Source: the human T2T-CHM13v2.0 reference genome, Homo sapiens. Taken from it: a stretch of DNA of 64,000 nucleotides. Below the pieces are notes generated by a model. That model did no database searches. It was not told the origin of the DNA and saw only the letters and a list, made by a program, of their open reading frames with translations. Below are positions 49,566 to 61,230 of this stretch, in pieces. The stretch lies in the NCBI RefSeq assembly GCF_009914755.1, contig NC_060927.1; one strand, 5' to 3'. Numbering within the stretch: the first letter of the stretch is position 1; each line of letters begins with the position of its first letter. A program made the translations under genes and the position numbers.

Positions 49566-49689
49566 TTATACAATATGGAGGTCTGTGCTATCAACTTCAC
49601 TTTATAACGCCTGAGACATCTTCACCTTGTTTCTAGTATCATAGTGTACTGTTCTTCTCTGTGTAGCTGGTGTAGGGTTGCATTTCATC
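49566..49689 (-). pseudogene. CD200R1-like last exon (cytoplasmic tail)
   Basis: ttttcttag|GATGAAATG... gives DEMQPYTSYTEKNSTL*; the shifted frame gives YDTRNKVKMSQAL*SEVDSTDLHIV*. CD200R1 reads DEMQPYASYTEKNNPLYDTTNKVKASEALQSEVDTDLHTL. Confidence 0.95.
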
Positions 49690-50358
49690 CTAAGAAAAAA
49701 AATCAAAGTCAAAATCAGTTCAAAAAGGGCAGAAATCATTATGGAAACTACCTGTTTTTTATAATAGGTGTCCACAGCTTTTGGTATCAACCAAGAGTGC
49801 TTATATTTGTGTTTCTGGGCTCACGTGAATATAAGAGCAAGGCTTTGTTCTAATATTTGTTAATTACTTAAGTCTCTGTGAGAGATGATGGTTGCATGAA
49901 AGTAGGAATAGAGATGAATGAAGTGGTATGAGAAGTATTCCAAAGGAGAGAGCCAAAGACATAGTAAGCTACTGGCATAAGAGATTCCAGGGCAGGATAT
50001 GTTTTAAGCTAGGGTAAGAGGAAAACGATGATGGTATTGAAAAATAGAAGTCAAGGTTCAGAGATGCTTTCCTGTAAATGGAAATGCCAATTCAGTTTCT
50101 CCAAAGATTACAGTTCAAAAGAGATAAACATCACGTGTATTAGGACATGGTTCATGAAATGAAAATGTGGATCTGGGTGGTCTATACATAGTACTTGATA
50201 GGTAATTAACAAAATAATTGCATCTATTTGCATTGTAAATCAGAACTGTTTGTTTTTCAACTAAAACACTAATATTGCTACACATTACAAATTATGTTAC
50301 TATATTTTCACACTATTGACTTAAAAGTTTGTAAATATTCTTTTTAATCTTATCTTAC

Positions 50359-50404
50359 CTCCTCAACAACTAGAGTAGCTTCTGTTTTATTCAATTTATA
50401 TTTT
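50359..50404 (-). pseudogene. CD200R1-like 46-nt juxtamembrane exon
   Basis: ttttatag|AAAATAT...GAGGAG|gtaaga gives (R)[15 protein letters not shown] vs CD200R1 [15 protein letters not shown]. Confidence 0.95.
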
Positions 50405-50428
50405 CTATAAAAATAAAATAAGCTGGAG

Positions 50429-50733
50429 TTGCTGGGTGCTGTGGCTCATGCCTGTAATGCCAGCACTCTGGGAGGCCAAGGCGGGCAGATTGCCTTAGCT
50501 CAGGAGTTTGTGACCAGCCTGGGCAACACGGTGAAACCCAGTCTTACTAAAATACAAAAAATTAGCCGGGCATGGTGGCATGTGCCTGTAGTCCCAGCCA
50601 CTCGGGAGGCTGAGGCAGGCGAATTGCTTGAACCCAAGAGGTGTAGGTTGCAGTGACCTGAGATGACACCACTGCACTCCAGCCTGGGTGACAGAGCGAG
50701 ACTCCGTCTCAAAAAAGAGAGAGGAAAAAAAAA
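50429..50733 (+). mobile_element. AluS, antisense to the CD200R-like gene
   Basis: Full dimer; TSD aagctggagt (50419-50428 / 50734-50743). Confidence 0.92.
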
Positions 50734-51257
50734 AAGCTGGAGTAAGTGGAGGTAATATTATTTAGATTGAAAATTGAAAGAAGTGTACTATTGACAATTG
50801 TGGTTCATTTTGATAGAAGCCATAATAAATCAGAAAGAAACTACCAGAAATGAGTGAAGGATACTGCTTGTAGCTACTACACTCATAGAAGAAAAGTCTA
50901 GATTTTGAAAAAAGAAGTGAAATTATGCAATAGGAGCTTGATGCAATTGAACATATGTAACACCTCCTCTTTGGTACAAGAAAAGAATTGTAATTATCTA
51001 TCCAAATTAAAAAATCAGCATGCACTATCTCTCCCAAGATCCTGCCCTAAATGGCCTAATTCGCCATGCTTGCATGCCAAAGCAACCTAGGAAAATCACT
51101 CACATCTGTCAAGGTAGTTCAAATCCAACATCTTCAGGATATTCTGTGATTATGAGAGATTTGATGTTAGAATTCTAATTGGTCAGTCAATTCCATATTT
51201 CTGGCCCTTTTCTAGTGCAATAAAGCTAAAGAAGAAAAAACATTCATCAATCAATAC

Positions 51258-51360
51258 CTGCAGCCACTGATTTTCAAAACCCAAAGCAATCCCACAATGA
51301 TCAAAATAAAACTCATAAAAATAATAGAGTGAATACATAGTTTTACTGATGTTTTGGTAC
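51258..51360 (-). pseudogene. CD200R1-like transmembrane exon
   Basis: ttacag|GTACC...TGCAG|gtattg gives GTKTSVKLCIHSIIFMSFILIIVGLLWVLKISGCR vs CD200R1 GAKKSAKLYIPYIILTIIILTIVGFIWLLKVNGCR; frame is open. Confidence 0.93.
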
Positions 51361-51394
51361 CTGTAATTATAAACAAAAATATATGTTTCAAATG

Positions 51395-57823: not shown

Positions 57824-57941
57824 GTCCTTTTTTCAGTGGTGCAGTGGAGCGAATTCAGTGGAGCGAATTCTTAATTCGCTCTAAGAATTATCACAAAGTC
57901 ACAAGACTCTCTTTTCAAATAACAAGACTTCCTTAAAGTCT

Positions 57942-58035
57942 TGCTATTTCAAGTGTGCTTGGCAGATCATCAGTAGCAGCAACAGCATCACGTGGAAGCT
58001 TGTTAGAAATGCAGAACACTAGGCCCCCACCCAAT
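57942..58035. mobile_element. MER5A-like fragment (similar piece at 55806-55842)
   Basis: cagcatcacgtggaagcttgttagaaatgcagaa...ggcccccaccc. Confidence 0.72.
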
Positions 58036-58094
58036 GACTATTCTAAACTTCTTAGCCACGAAAACAAGAAAGAGAAGGATAAAATTGAGCATTT

Positions 58095-58659
58095 TATTTT
58101 TTTCTTTTTAAAATTTTTTATTTTCGTAGGTTTCTGAAAAAACAGGTGGTATTTGTTTACATGAGTAAGTTCTTTGGTGGTGACTTGTGGGATTTCAGTG
58201 CACCCATCACCTGAACAGTATACACTGAACCCAATTTGTAGTCTTTTATTCCTCACCCCCCTTCCCACACTTTCTCCCAAGTCCCCAAAGTCCATTGTAT
58301 CATTCTTATGCCTTTGCATCCTGATAAATTAGCTCCCACTTATGAGTGAGAATATACGATGTTTGTTTTCCAATCCTGAGTTACTTCATTGAGGATAATA
58401 GTCTCCAGTTTCATCCAGATTACTGCAAATGCCATTAATTCATTCCTTTTTATGGCTGAGTAGTATTCCATGGTGTGTGTGTATATATATGTCACAGTTT
58501 CCTTATCCAATCATTGATTGATGTGCGTTTAGACTGGTTCCATATTTTTGCAATTGCAGTGTGAAGATTCCTTAAAGAACTAAAAGTAGAACTATGATTT
58601 GATCCAGGAATCTCACTACTGTGTATCTACCCAGAAAAAAGAAGTCATTCTTCGAAAAA
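58095..58659 (-). mobile_element. L1PB 3' end with a short 5' inversion
   Basis: Minus 3'UTR to ~58557, then plus-strand upstream L1 sequence 58560-58659. Confidence 0.82.
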
Positions 58660-59249
58660 TTATTCTTACATGATATATGTACAACTAGCTTGTATAATTT
58701 TCCCTGTAGTTTACCATTTTCTATGTACTAACATCCCTAAACAAATTTTTAAAAATCAATTAAATATATATTGAGCAGCCACTTTGTTCAAGGACAGCTT
58801 TGCCATAAGGTACATAATAAAAGAACAGTTATAAGTCAATCAATGATTGAGTAAAATTTTAATTTTTCAGTATCAATTGCTTTATAGGAATGAGCATATA
58901 TACACAGCTAATTTAAGCCCACTATGCATGAAACTAAACTAAAAAAGTATGAAAAGTGGAGCAAATTTAATGATGTTTATATATCACCAAGAGTTGATTC
59001 AGTGAAAAAACAAAATAGCAACAATTGTTTGGTATCTAAAACCTGAAATTTTGTCTATGTAAATAGTATATAGAGACAATCTATCTCTCTAAAATAATAG
59101 AAATATTGCCAAAGTACCACTATACTAGCTGTTGGTGTGTGGGAAATTCTTTTGGTTACTTGTTTCTGTGTTTAATTTTTTAAATATTAATTATTTCTAT
59201 TATACATCAACTATTTATCATTACCTTATTTTTGTATCAACATGGTACC

Positions 59250-59573
59250 TTTTTTAAGGAACAAGGTCTCACTATGTCATCTAGGCTTTAGTGGAGTGGC
59301 ACAATCATAGCTCATGTAACCTTCAACTCCTGGTTTCAAGCAATCCTCTCACCTCAGCCTCCCAAGTAACTAGGCTACAGGTATGGTAGCCATTATGCTC
59401 AGCTAATTCTTTTATTTTTATTTTTTTATTTTAATTCTTTTATTTTTATTTTTTATAAAGATGGGGTCTTGTTATGTTGCCCAGGCTGGTCTCAAACACC
59501 TGGCCTCAAGCAATCCATTGGTCCTGGCCTTCCAAAATGTTGAGATTACAGATGTGAGCCAATGTACCCAGCC
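59250..59573 (-). mobile_element. AluJ
   Basis: Diverged dimer with an expanded linker; degenerate TSD aa(c/t)atg(g/a)tac. Confidence 0.88.
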
Positions 59574-61184
59574 CAATATGATACATCTTAATTAACACAA
59601 TGTTATCTATCCTTTCTCCTTTCTTTGCTTCCTGTACTAGATGCAGACAAGTTCAGAGATGAAGGCAGGTATTCAAGTGGAGGATTTTAAAAGAAATTCA
59701 CTATAAAATTCTGGGAGTTACAGGTACAAGAATTAGTAAGCTAATCATGGTCTTGTTTTTACTCTGACAGCTTTGCTACAGTCACTGCGTTCTCCACAAA
59801 TGGAACTATGTACAGAATTTATGACAACTAAAGTGAATTTCCTGAGAAATGTAATTTTGGAGAAATTGAAGGATTTATGAAGAGATGATACTAACAGAGG
59901 CATAGCAATGTTGCATTTGAACTGATATAACAAGCTGATTATGAAGAGGCATAGTGGAAGAAAATGATATTCAGGGGAATAATAAAAAGTCATCTGTGAC
60001 CAACTAAGTTGGTCTGAGTTCCACTTTAAATTTATTTCCAGAAATCTTTACTCTCCTGCTCCAATCCTGACTGGTTGCTTCCTATTTCCATTTTATGATT
60101 TCTTATTCTGGCACTTTCTTTTGATATTTACCTGGGAAATCTCCTCAGCTGTCTTCTCTATTGAAGCCCATGTTTCCAGAATCCTAGCTTCTTTACTGGT
60201 TTTCTCCTTATTTGAGAGTTTACATGCCTGAAATTTTCTTTGAATCTGTAGCATATTCGCAAGGGTCATTCAGTTTCTGCCTTGAAAGTTGCTCAAAATC
60301 TTGTCCCAAGAGGTATGTGTGCCTATCTGGGGTATTTGGGGACCTGGACAGGGAATGAGGGCTGGCAGGGATTGGGGGTGTATTTCTCTGGTAAATATAT
60401 AGATTCCACTTAATCCACCTATTTTCAGCCCCATATCTCCTCTTGAATCTTTCTGTTCCCATTGTCTGTAAGACTAAATTCTTTGTGATTCATGTTCTAT
60501 AGGGAATAAATCTAAAATCTGAGAATTTGGAAGGGAATGTTGAGACTTTTCAGGGTCTAACCACCTCTTACACAGAATTTCAAACAATTCTCTTAATTCC
60601 AGACCTGGGCTTTGCACTCACTTTCTGCAAAACCCAATTCTTGAGCCTTTGCAGCTTGGTTCTGTTTCCTCCTGAAGAAACACGTTCAGCTTCCTCTATT
60701 CTCCTGGGTGATCAAGCTTTCCATCCTCCAAAATACGTTAATGTTTCCTAACCCCCTGTGTCTTCTCTCCTGACATTTTGATTCCTTTAGGCCTATATGT
60801 TTTAAATATTATTATTGTCATATTAATAGCCATTCAGGAGAGAATAGACACGATACATCTATTCAATTCACCATGTCAAACTAGAAATCTCCATTTTTAT
60901 TTAAAATCCTGTGGCATTTTTTTATTTTTTTATTAAGAAATGTTTTTTCAAAGATAATTTTGGCAGAAATATAAGTAATTAAGACATTATCTTTCTTTTT
61001 TAAAACATAGTGATTAAAATAAAGTAGCATTTTCACTCTTTGAGCTATTTTAAACTGAGCATTTTAAAGGACTAGTGGAAAAGCTCTAGTGGAAAAATAT
61101 TCTAATGTATTTTTCTAATTATGGTTTCCTCTCTACTTCGCCCAATACCCCTCAGCATCCCCGCAACTTGGCCAACAGACTCAC

Positions 61185-61230
61185 CAGCTATGAAAAAAAA
61201 TGTGAACAGTATCCCAAAAGCTGAAGCCAT
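61185..61230 (-). pseudogene. CD200R-like leader (signal peptide) exon, coding part
   Basis: aagATGG Kozak context; MASAFGILFTFFFIA then G|gtgagt phase-1 donor. With the upstream WK it aligns to CD200R1 WRTANLGLLLILTIFLVA. Confidence 0.78.

What the first reader, a model, noticed from the sequence alone, without database searches (positions are those of the whole stretch)
49639..61230. Four surviving exons join into an open 81-aa ectodomain-less membrane microprotein ORF
Seen: joining 61230-61185, 51360-51258, 50404-50359 and 49689-49639 gives [81 protein letters not shown]. The Kozak is strong, there is no internal stop, and the stop lies in the last exon, so NMD escape is expected. Inference: if expressed, it could be a ligand-blind modulator of CD200R signalling. 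Caveat: leader and TM exons are phase-compatible in any Ig-receptor gene, and short exons can stay open by chance.
Basis: partly seen in the sequence, partly recalled or inferred. Interest (0 to 1): 0.75.

Follow-up and report, generated by a model that had tools for sequence, protein, structure and literature searches.

The report
Decayed CD200R paralog leaves 81-codon frame
The four pieces are real leftovers of a dead third CD200 receptor gene, and the short open frame they form is most likely a harmless by-product of how such genes are built, not a working protein.

Summary
The four minus-strand segments have AG/GT splice sites and join into the stated 81-codon frame.

All four are genuine CD200R-family relics:
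- The TM exon and both cytoplasmic exons lie in a colinear block, about 46977-55250. It copies the 3' part of CD200R1 at 75-81% identity.
- The leader does not resemble CD200R1's leader. It does match the CD200R1L leader exon: best of 1867 candidates.
- It also matches an alpaca CD200R2 leader; 0 of 1000 shuffles reach that score.
- Lemur and tarsier gene models start at the homologous spot. They carry Ig domains and inhibitory tails. The locus is therefore the remnant of a full-length third paralog.

Signs of decay:
- No Ig exon relic survives.
- The stop codon comes from a 2-bp deletion inside the NPLY codons. A nonsense change and a 3-bp insertion follow it.
- Divergence is intron-like.
- An open frame is expected by chance in 32% of simulations.
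- No database protein and no paper covers the locus.

Verdict: an ordinary unprocessed pseudogene, already annotated as CD200R1P1 and larger than annotated. Expression could not be tested. A working microprotein is unlikely.

The parts
61185..61230 (-). Leader (signal peptide) exon relic. It is 46 nt, phase 1, with its ATG in the context TGGAAGATGG and donor CTG|GTGAGT. It is of the CD200R1L / alpaca CD200R2 leader type, not the CD200R1 type.
   Evidence: It has the same 46-nt length and phase as the CD200R1L leader exon (ATG at window -1332). It is the best of 1867 candidates. It scores 44 against the alpaca P0085 N-terminus MSSAFGRLFTVF, and 0 of 1000 shuffles reach that score. It is not like the CD200R1 leader: rank 598 of 3394.
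61272..61340 (-). Upstream ATG region. In human it is a 10-codon dead-end frame, MEQSKRSKIP* (61340-61308). It is homologous to the predicted N-termini of a lemur and a tarsier CD200R1-like gene model.
   Evidence: Lemur P0036 residues 1-23 are 61% identical here (E 0.29 against the window; 5e-05 against 2 kb). Tarsier P0043 residues 1-17 are 47% identical (E 0.077 against 2 kb).
55251..61184 (-). The stretch where exon 2, the V exon and the C2 exon should lie. No Ig relic is detectable. It holds repeat DNA, including an L1 block at 55860-57819, and shows no unique homology to either paralog.
   Evidence: only multi-copy hits; the best Ig-exon tblastn E-values against the window are 0.8-3; nothing colinear.
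51361..55250 (-). Intron homologous to the CD200R1 intron between the C2 and TM exons (CD200R1 window places 78134-80907). It is interrupted by a repeat at 54211-55040.
   Evidence: 50725-53691 matches 77488-80462 at 74.7%; 53910-54211 matches 80448-80753; 55072-55250 matches 80727-80907. K2P 0.272 over 2249 aligned sites.
51258..51360 (-). Transmembrane exon relic, 103 nt, with both splice sites kept.
   Evidence: the only other genomic hit is CD200R1, at 81% identity; 22.3% differences, K2P 0.27; omega 0.87.
50431..50736 (-). Alu inserted antisense to the gene, about 15 nt upstream of the pyrimidine tract of the next acceptor. It is flanked by the duplicated target ACTCCAGCTT and is absent from CD200R1.
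   Evidence: multi-copy hits; sequence; target-site duplication on both sides, single copy in CD200R1.
50359..50404 (-). First cytoplasmic exon relic ([15 protein letters not shown]), 46 nt.
   Evidence: 44 of 46 nt identical to CD200R1 77481-77436. It lies inside the annotated CD200R1P1 span.
49639..49689 (-). Start of the last exon up to the frameshift-made TGA. A 2-bp deletion lies between 49648 and 49647, inside the codons that encode NPLY in CD200R1.
49588..49604 (-). Further lesions in the old reading frame: CAA>TAA nonsense at 49604-49602 and a 3-bp insertion at 49590-49588.
46977..49638 (-). Relic of the CD200R1-type 3'UTR and 3' flank, in patches. The stretch around the CD200R1 poly(A) signal has no counterpart here.
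   Evidence: blocks 49156-50429, 48741-48987, 48468-48641 and 46977-47258 match CD200R1 76217-77506, 75861-76136, 75654-75833 and 73663-73960; best local score 24 for the poly(A) region.

Best explanation
This is the wreck of a third, tandemly duplicated CD200 receptor gene. It lies between CD200R1 and CD200R1L on the same strand. RefSeq names a small part of it CD200R1P1.

The ancestral gene was a full-length receptor. It had a leader of the CD200R1L / activating-receptor type, two Ig exons, and a CD200R1-type transmembrane and inhibitory tail. That a full-length form existed is inferred from lemur and tarsier gene models.

In the human lineage three things happened:
- Exon 2 and both Ig exons were lost, and repeat DNA including an L1 block now occupies that stretch.
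- An Alu landed next to one acceptor.
- The last exon took a 2-bp deletion, a nonsense change and a 3-bp insertion.

The leader exon of this gene family ends in phase 1 and the TM exon begins in phase 1. Leader and TM relics therefore join in frame automatically. The 2-bp deletion then supplies a nearby stop. The 81-codon frame is thus a structural by-product of decay, not a product of selection. The locus is most likely neither translated nor functional as a protein.

Shown: homology of all four pieces, absence of Ig relics, the lesions, and intron-like divergence. Inferred: the single-gene ancestry, the order of events, and the lack of expression.
For: 1. 3' part. Colinear homology to CD200R1 runs over window 46977-55250, including introns, at 75-81% identity. 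It is therefore an unprocessed duplicate.

2. Leader.
- It has the same 46-nt length and phase as the CD200R1L leader exon.
- It is the best non-self match among 1867 ATG..GT segments: score 14, next 5, mean -14.8, sd 5.4.
- It scores 44 against the alpaca CD200R2 leader; 0 of 1000 shuffles reach that (mean 25.0, max 41).

3. One former gene. Lemur P0036 (451 aa, flagged LOW QUALITY) and tarsier P0043 (350 aa) begin with a peptide homologous to 61340-61272. Both contain Ig domains and end in inhibitory-type tails. P0036 shares [15 protein letters not shown] and NKVKM.QAL with this locus.

4. Decay.
- No Ig relic: the best E-values are 0.8-3.
- The last exon carries a 2-bp deletion, a TAA and a 3-bp insertion.
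- There is an Alu at the cyt1 acceptor.
- The CD200R1 poly(A) region has no counterpart.
- No homolog of the CD200R1L 5' region (-3000..3000) lies upstream of the leader.

5. Rates.
- Intron K2P is 0.18-0.27 and TM exon K2P is 0.27, with omega 0.87.
- 32% of 20000 random-substitution trials stay open.

6. Signalling. The peptide ends EEDEMQPYTSYTEKNSTL. It lacks the N and the last Y of EEDExxPYxxYxxKxNxxY (abstract of PMC8007030).

7. Databases and literature.
- No protein of 26-2000 aa in the 5.8-billion-protein set scored against the TM-exon translation. Two candidates shared words and none scored at E <= 10; one search found no candidate.
- 0 papers hold 'CD200R1P1' or 'CD200R1 pseudogene'.
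- The hub's RefSeq table lists no transcript.
Against: - All six splice sites, the ATG and a strong Kozak context are intact. The leader's donor is the only one of 178 upstream candidates with 8 or more of 9 consensus matches. If the region were transcribed, the proposed splicing would be plausible.
- The cytoplasmic part is more conserved than the introns: 5 differences in 87 nt, omega 0.32. That rests on only 2 synonymous and 3 nonsynonymous changes. It is also expected if only the CD200R1 side was constrained.
- Indels in the old coding part number 2. About 5 would be expected from the intron rate; this is my own arithmetic from the gap counts and is not significant.
- No RNA, CAGE, Ribo-seq or peptide data could be consulted, so absence of expression is inferred, not shown.
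- The single-gene ancestry rests on automatic gene models in two species. One is flagged low quality, and neither model's N-terminus looks like a signal peptide.
- The tree of the TM and tail region does not resolve where the relic branches.
Confidence: 0.85

Rival explanations
1. An expressed membrane microprotein. A transcript starts upstream of 61230 and splices leader>TM>cyt1>cyt2. It yields an 81-aa protein, or about 65 aa if the leader is cleaved. That protein has almost no ectodomain and a tail bearing EEDExxPYxxYxxK. It could sit in the membrane as a decoy for the kinases or partners of CD200R1.
For: - The ATG is intact, the Kozak context is strong, all six splice sites are kept, and the stop lies in the last exon.
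- The leader donor is the best of 178 candidates.
- There are two hydrophobic segments, residues 1-17 and 23-46, separated by GTKTSVK.
- The cytoplasmic part has omega 0.32, on 5 changes.
- The tail keeps EEDE, P, both membrane-proximal tyrosines and K.
Against: - The fully conserved NxxY tyrosine is lost through a frameshift, and more lesions lie behind it.
- The TM exon evolves like intron.
- An open frame is expected in 32% of neutral trials.
- In relatives the signal-peptide cleavage region continues into sequence after the leader exon (…VS|ASSSSC…). That sequence is missing from this locus.
- An Alu sits at the cyt1 acceptor.
- No homolog of the CD200R1L 5' region or of the CD200R1 poly(A) region was found.
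- A 10-codon upstream frame would precede the ATG if the start site is as in the prosimian models.
- No database protein and no paper covers it.
Confidence: 0.05
2. A transcribed but non-coding relic. The locus, or the RefSeq enhancer at 46938-48137 next to it, acts at the RNA or DNA level on CD200R1 or CD200R1L. The reading frame is irrelevant.
For: The hub's table lists a RefSeq enhancer at 46938-48137. It overlaps the block 46977-47258, which is homologous to the 3' flank of CD200R1. Splice sites are intact.
Against: Nothing here shows transcription or enhancer activity on these genes. Divergence is at the neutral level.
Confidence: 0.07
3. The leader is a chance ATG-to-GT segment, or comes from a different duplication than the TM and tail relic. 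In that case the four pieces never formed one gene.
For: - Homology does not extend into the leader's flanks. The local score is 16 against a shuffle mean of 14.6.
- No unique homology links 55251-61184 to either paralog.
- The leader is of the CD200R1L type while the 3' part is of the CD200R1 type.
Against: - Chance is excluded.
- Lemur and tarsier models join the homologous 5' region to Ig exons and inhibitory tails. This favours one gene, although automatic models can chain neighbouring relics.
Confidence: 0.03

Closest known systems
CD200R1 (inhibitory CD200 receptor), the neighbouring gene
   Same: The TM exon, both cytoplasmic exons, their introns and patches of the 3'UTR are colinear copies at 75-81% DNA identity. 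The TM and tail region is 66% identical at protein level to human CD200R1 and 71% to New World monkey CD200R1. Exon phases and splice sites are the same.
   Different: - It has a different leader.
- It has no exon 2, V exon or C2 exon.
- The NPLY codons are destroyed, so the N and last Y of the signalling motif are missing.
- The poly(A) region is not kept.
CD200R1L and the alpaca 'CD200 receptor 2' (activating-type family members)
   Same: The leader exon has the same 46-nt length, phase, GGAAGATG start context and CTGGTRAGTCTG donor as CD200R1L. The peptide MASAFGILFTFFF resembles the alpaca MSSAFGRLFTVFL.
   Different: Those genes have a lysine-bearing TM and a very short tail. This relic has a CD200R1-type TM and tail.
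Lemur catta P0036 and Carlito syrichta P0043 (predicted CD200R1-like genes)
   Same: Their predicted N-termini map to 61340-61272, just upstream of the leader. They end in inhibitory-type tails. P0036 shares several residues with this relic that lemur CD200R1 lacks.
   Different: They still contain Ig domains (Pfam columns). They are automatic models, one of them flagged low quality. Orthology is inferred, not shown by synteny.
Known human CD200R1 isoforms and the truncated ligand CD200tr
   Same: Truncated products exist in this ligand-receptor axis. CD200tr is reported to act as an antagonist (passages of PMC7915401).
   Different: The four described CD200R1 isoforms all keep at least the V domain (same passages). 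None is ectodomain-less, and none comes from this locus.
Transmembrane adaptor proteins with tiny ectodomains, such as DAP10, DAP12 and LAT (recalled, not tested)
   Same: If translated, the product would share the general layout: a signal peptide, a few outside residues, one TM helix and a tyrosine-bearing tail.
   Different: There is no sequence relationship. No charged TM residue for receptor pairing was seen, and there is no evidence of expression.

Membership tests
CD200 receptor gene family (as a gene relic) | Leader exon homologous to a family leader, phase 1 | tested here: met
   It matches the CD200R1L and alpaca CD200R2 leaders. It does not match the CD200R1 leader.
CD200 receptor gene family (as a gene relic) | V-type and C2-type Ig exons that form the CD200-binding ectodomain | tested here: not met
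   the CD200R1 V and C2 exon translations against the whole window give best E-values of 2.1 and 3.0; with 7 family proteins, no Ig-region hit falls below E 0.8.
CD200 receptor gene family (as a gene relic) | TM and cytoplasmic exons homologous to CD200R1, with introns in the same places | tested here: met
Functional inhibitory CD200R | Complete tail motif EEDExxPYxxYxxKxNxxY with the invariant last tyrosine (abstract of PMC8007030) | tested here: not met
   The frame reads EEDEMQPYTSYTEKNSTL*, so N is replaced by S and the Y is lost after the 2-bp deletion.
Unprocessed (duplicated) pseudogene | Introns and flanks copied with the exons, plus disabling lesions | tested here: met
   Searches show intron homology. 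Searches show exon loss, a frameshift, a nonsense change and an insertion.
Unprocessed (duplicated) pseudogene | Neutral evolution after inactivation | tested here: inconclusive
   TM omega is 0.87 at the intron rate. The cytoplasmic part has omega 0.32 on only 5 changes. No other primate DNA was available for a lineage-specific test.
Translated microprotein / small membrane protein | Transcript with the proposed junctions, ribosome occupancy, peptide evidence | not testable with these tools
   No RNA-seq, CAGE, Ribo-seq or proteomics resource is on hand. The only indirect data are (no matching database protein; no paper) and the hub's table (no transcript).

The most novel reading that the evidence does not exclude
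After losing its ligand-binding exons, the dead paralog was kept in humans and apes as a spliced leader>TM>tail transcript in myeloid cells. Its 81-aa product, or about 65 aa after leader cleavage, inserts in the membrane. It displays EEDExxPYxxYxxK without the Dok2-recruiting tyrosine. It would act as a ligand-independent sink for the kinase or partners of CD200R1 and so tune the inhibitory threshold.
Probability: 0.04. Interest if true: 0.6.

Novelty: already known. Interest (0 to 1): 0.15.

Why it matters
As it stands it matters little. It is an annotated pseudogene in a paired-receptor cluster, and the open frame is what the exon phases of this gene family produce when the middle exons are lost.

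Two modest points are new:
- The relic is about 12 kb long, not the 0.8 kb annotated. It includes a TM exon and a leader.
- Its make-up, a CD200R1L-type leader with a CD200R1-type tail, together with the lemur and tarsier models, points to a third, probably inhibitory, CD200R paralog in early primates that later died.

Only if junction reads and peptides turned up would it become interesting. It would then be a lineage-specific, ectodomain-less derivative of an immune checkpoint receptor.

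Tried and rejected
1. Leader homologous to the CD200R1 leader.
- A first local alignment looked in register: score 19, reached by 1 of 200 shuffles.
- Scanning the window and left flank with the CD200R1 leader gave only a four-way tie at the top of 1354 chunks.
- nhmmer found nothing.
- With the A-rich upstream stretch left out, the CD200R1 leader chunk ranked 598 of 3394.
- Rejected. The early score came from the A-run and the donor consensus.

2. Homology of the leader's flanks to CD200R1L. The local score was 16 against a shuffle mean of 14.6. 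No match was found to the CD200R1L 5' region at -3000..3000. Relaxed blastn gave nothing colinear.

3. A tandem-duplication model in which the spacer between CD200R1 and the leader copies the spacer between the relic and CD200R1L. Only L1-type multi-copy matches appeared, plus the one block 73663-73960 matching 46977-47258. The model is neither supported nor excluded.

4. Whole-genome search with 48400-55300 was swamped by L1 copies and gave nothing usable.

5. A tree of the TM and tail region (28 rows, 64 columns; Tamandua left out because its tail is aberrant) left the relic unplaced. No supported clade holds it.

6. Protein database searches with the TM-exon translation.
- 33 aa was too short for the tool.
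- I used the 49-aa in-frame stretch 51400-51254 instead. It found nothing among longer proteins or proteins of similar length.

8. Soft-masking is not present in the window file.

9. Two papers hold both 'CD200R1L' and 'pseudogene'. Their titles, seen in the listing only, are on unrelated subjects.

Full report
**What is there.**
- 61230-61185 (46 nt), 51360-51258 (103 nt), 50404-50359 (46 nt) and 49689-49639 (51 nt) join to 246 nt.
- They translate to the quoted 81-residue peptide.
- Every junction has a canonical AG acceptor or GT donor.
- The start context is TGGAAGATGG.
- The window is human chr3. The assembly could be searched, and I fetched the neighbouring genes CD200R1 and CD200R1L.

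**The 3' three exons copy CD200R1.**
- The TM exon region has a single other match among the scored genomic candidates, inside CD200R1, at 81% identity.
- blastn against the flanks gives a colinear series. Window 46977-47258, 48468-48641, 48741-48987, 49156-50429, 50725-53691, 53910-54211 and 55072-55250 match CD200R1 places 73663 through 80907 at 74-80% identity. Repeats interrupt the series.
- Exon-by-exon alignments show the same splice sites.
- Because introns were copied too, this is an unprocessed duplicate.
- The RefSeq span for CD200R1P1 (49575-50406) covers only the last two exons.

**The Ig exons are gone.**
- CD200R1's V and C2 exons lie at 82499-82092 and 82047-81757. That is about 850 bp beyond the point where homology ends.
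- Their translations find nothing in the window: best E-values are 2.1 and 3.0. They find CD200R1L strongly.
- Seven full-length family proteins likewise hit only the TM, cyt1 and cyt2 relics at E < 0.01.
- The stretch 55251-61184 holds repeat DNA, including an L1 block, and shows no unique homology to either paralog.

**The leader is real, but it is not CD200R1's.**
- I first suspected chance. CD200R1's leader starts at window place 127800.
- It gave an in-register alignment. That alignment dissolved on control: nhmmer found nothing, there was a four-way tie at the top of 1354 chunks, and the rank was 598 of 3394 once the A-rich upstream stretch was removed.
- The same scan flagged window place -1332, which is the CD200R1L leader exon (MSAPRLLISIIIMVS).
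- That exon is also 46 nt and phase 1. It shares GGAAGATG before and around the start and CTGGTRAGTCTG at the donor.
It scores 14 against 5 for the next; mean -14.8, sd 5.4. Among the 21 segments with GTRAGT donors the next best scores -1.
- At protein level, 107 mammalian CD200R-family proteins were retrieved with the CD200R1 V exon. The N-terminus of an alpaca 'CD200 receptor 2' (P0085, MSSAFGRLFTVF...) scores 44 against the relic's leader, with the next at 25.
- 0 of 1000 shuffles of the leader reach 44 (mean 25.0, sd 3.1, max 41). The ten higher-scoring real segments printed all lie inside CD200R1 or CD200R1L.
- Independently, it is the only one of 178 upstream ATG..|GT phase-1 segments with a donor matching 8 or more of 9 consensus positions.
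- Homology does not extend into its flanks.

**Probably one former gene.**
- The lemur model P0036 (451 aa, flagged LOW QUALITY) and the tarsier model P0043 (350 aa) begin MGQGKRSKRPQ... and MVRNKRSKRPQ...
- The human counterpart, MEQSKRSKIP*, lies at 61340-61308, just upstream of the leader ATG.
- Both models carry Ig domains (Pfam columns) and end in inhibitory-type tails.
- P0036 shares [15 protein letters not shown] and, in the old frame, NKVKM.QAL with the relic.
- I infer a third full-length paralog in early primates, with a CD200R1L-type leader and a CD200R1-type tail.
- Intron distances of K2P 0.18-0.27 fit that. With recalled neutral rates of 1.2-2.2e-9 per site per year they give roughly 40-110 million years.
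- The protein tree does not resolve the relic's position. Its nearest rows by path are anthropoid CD200R1.

**Why the frame is open, and why that is not evidence of function.**
- The leader exon of CD200R1L and of CD200R1 ends in phase 1, and the TM exon begins in phase 1.
- The stop is a lesion. A 2-bp deletion between 49648 and 49647 falls in the codons that read NPLY in CD200R1, and it brings TGA into frame four codons later.
- In the old frame a CAA>TAA change (49604-49602) and a 3-bp insertion (49590-49588) follow.
- The TM exon differs from CD200R1 at 22% of sites (K2P 0.27), the same as the adjoining intron, with omega 0.87. The cytoplasmic part has omega 0.32, but on five changes only.
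- Placing the observed 28 substitutions at random on the CD200R1 exons leaves the frame stop-free in 32% of 20000 trials.

**Would the product signal?**
- The abstract of PMC8007030 defines the mammalian motif EEDExxPYxxYxxKxNxxY. It states that the last tyrosine is fully conserved and central to signalling.
- The relic reads EEDEMQPYTSYTEKNSTL*. EEDE, P, two tyrosines and K remain. The asparagine is replaced and the key tyrosine is lost.
- Hydropathy shows two hydrophobic segments, residues 1-17 and 23-46, seven residues apart.
- In family members the leader peptide continues into further sequence that includes the ...ASSSSC region. That sequence is absent from this locus, so even the topology is uncertain.

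**Expression.**
- This could not be tested.
- Indirect points against it:
  - The hub's RefSeq table has no transcript.
  - No homolog of the CD200R1L 5' region (-3000..3000) lies upstream of the leader.
  - The CD200R1 poly(A) region has no counterpart.
  - An antisense Alu with target duplication ACTCCAGCTT sits 15 nt upstream of the cyt1 acceptor tract.
  - No database protein of 26-2000 aa scored against the TM-exon translation.
  - No paper holds 'CD200R1P1' or 'CD200R1 pseudogene'.
- Passages of PMC7915401 describe four CD200R1 isoforms, all retaining at least the V domain.
- PMC9291319 (passages) places the CD200R1L duplication in the primate ancestor and does not mention a pseudogene (0 occurrences).
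- In favour of possible expression: all splice sites, the ATG and the Kozak context are intact.

**Verdict.** This is an ordinary decayed paralog, already annotated in part. The proposed function is unsupported and, given the lost tyrosine and the multiple lesions, unlikely. Supplements of the cited papers were not opened. Supplementary Fig. S4 of PMC9291319, a family tree, might bear on the third-paralog inference.

Noticed in passing
outside the window: window places -16349..-17181 and -19355..-20066 (locus L012, inside CD200R1L): CD200R1L holds two sets of V and C2 Ig exons. One is close to CD200R1 (84-89% aa identity). An older one, about 3 kb upstream, is at 46-78% identity and split into pieces. 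The older set looks like a relic left after the ectodomain was replaced or homogenised from CD200R1.
   Followed up: no
outside the window: about -1350..-1332 (locus L013): Human CD200R1L reads ...QKHTLGKMSAPRLL.... Old World monkey models start MHTLGKMSASRLL.... Human therefore lacks the upstream ATG and starts at the internal methionine.
   Followed up: no
46938-48137: The RefSeq enhancer in the hub's table overlaps 46977-47258. That block is homologous, at 75% identity, to the DNA just beyond the CD200R1 poly(A) site at 73663-73960.
   Followed up: no
outside the window: about 111864 (locus L006, CD200R1 intron 1): An ATG..GT open segment, MLAQAYDNNDLGKETSGAQ, matches the N-terminal region of a grey seal CD200R1-like isoform (P0055) with score 83. 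It may be an alternative exon conserved across mammals.
   Followed up: no
3836-8416, and outside the window 64555-68582 and 69514-73289: Two adjacent blocks of about 4 kb between the relic and CD200R1 both match window 3836-8416 at 75-80% identity. These are repeated L1-rich units on both sides of the relic. They could be traces of the duplication that built the cluster.
   Followed up: partly
61308-61340: A 10-codon frame, MEQSKRSKIP*, sits 110 nt upstream of the leader ATG. Its ATG is the one used as the start codon in the lemur and tarsier gene models.
   Followed up: partly
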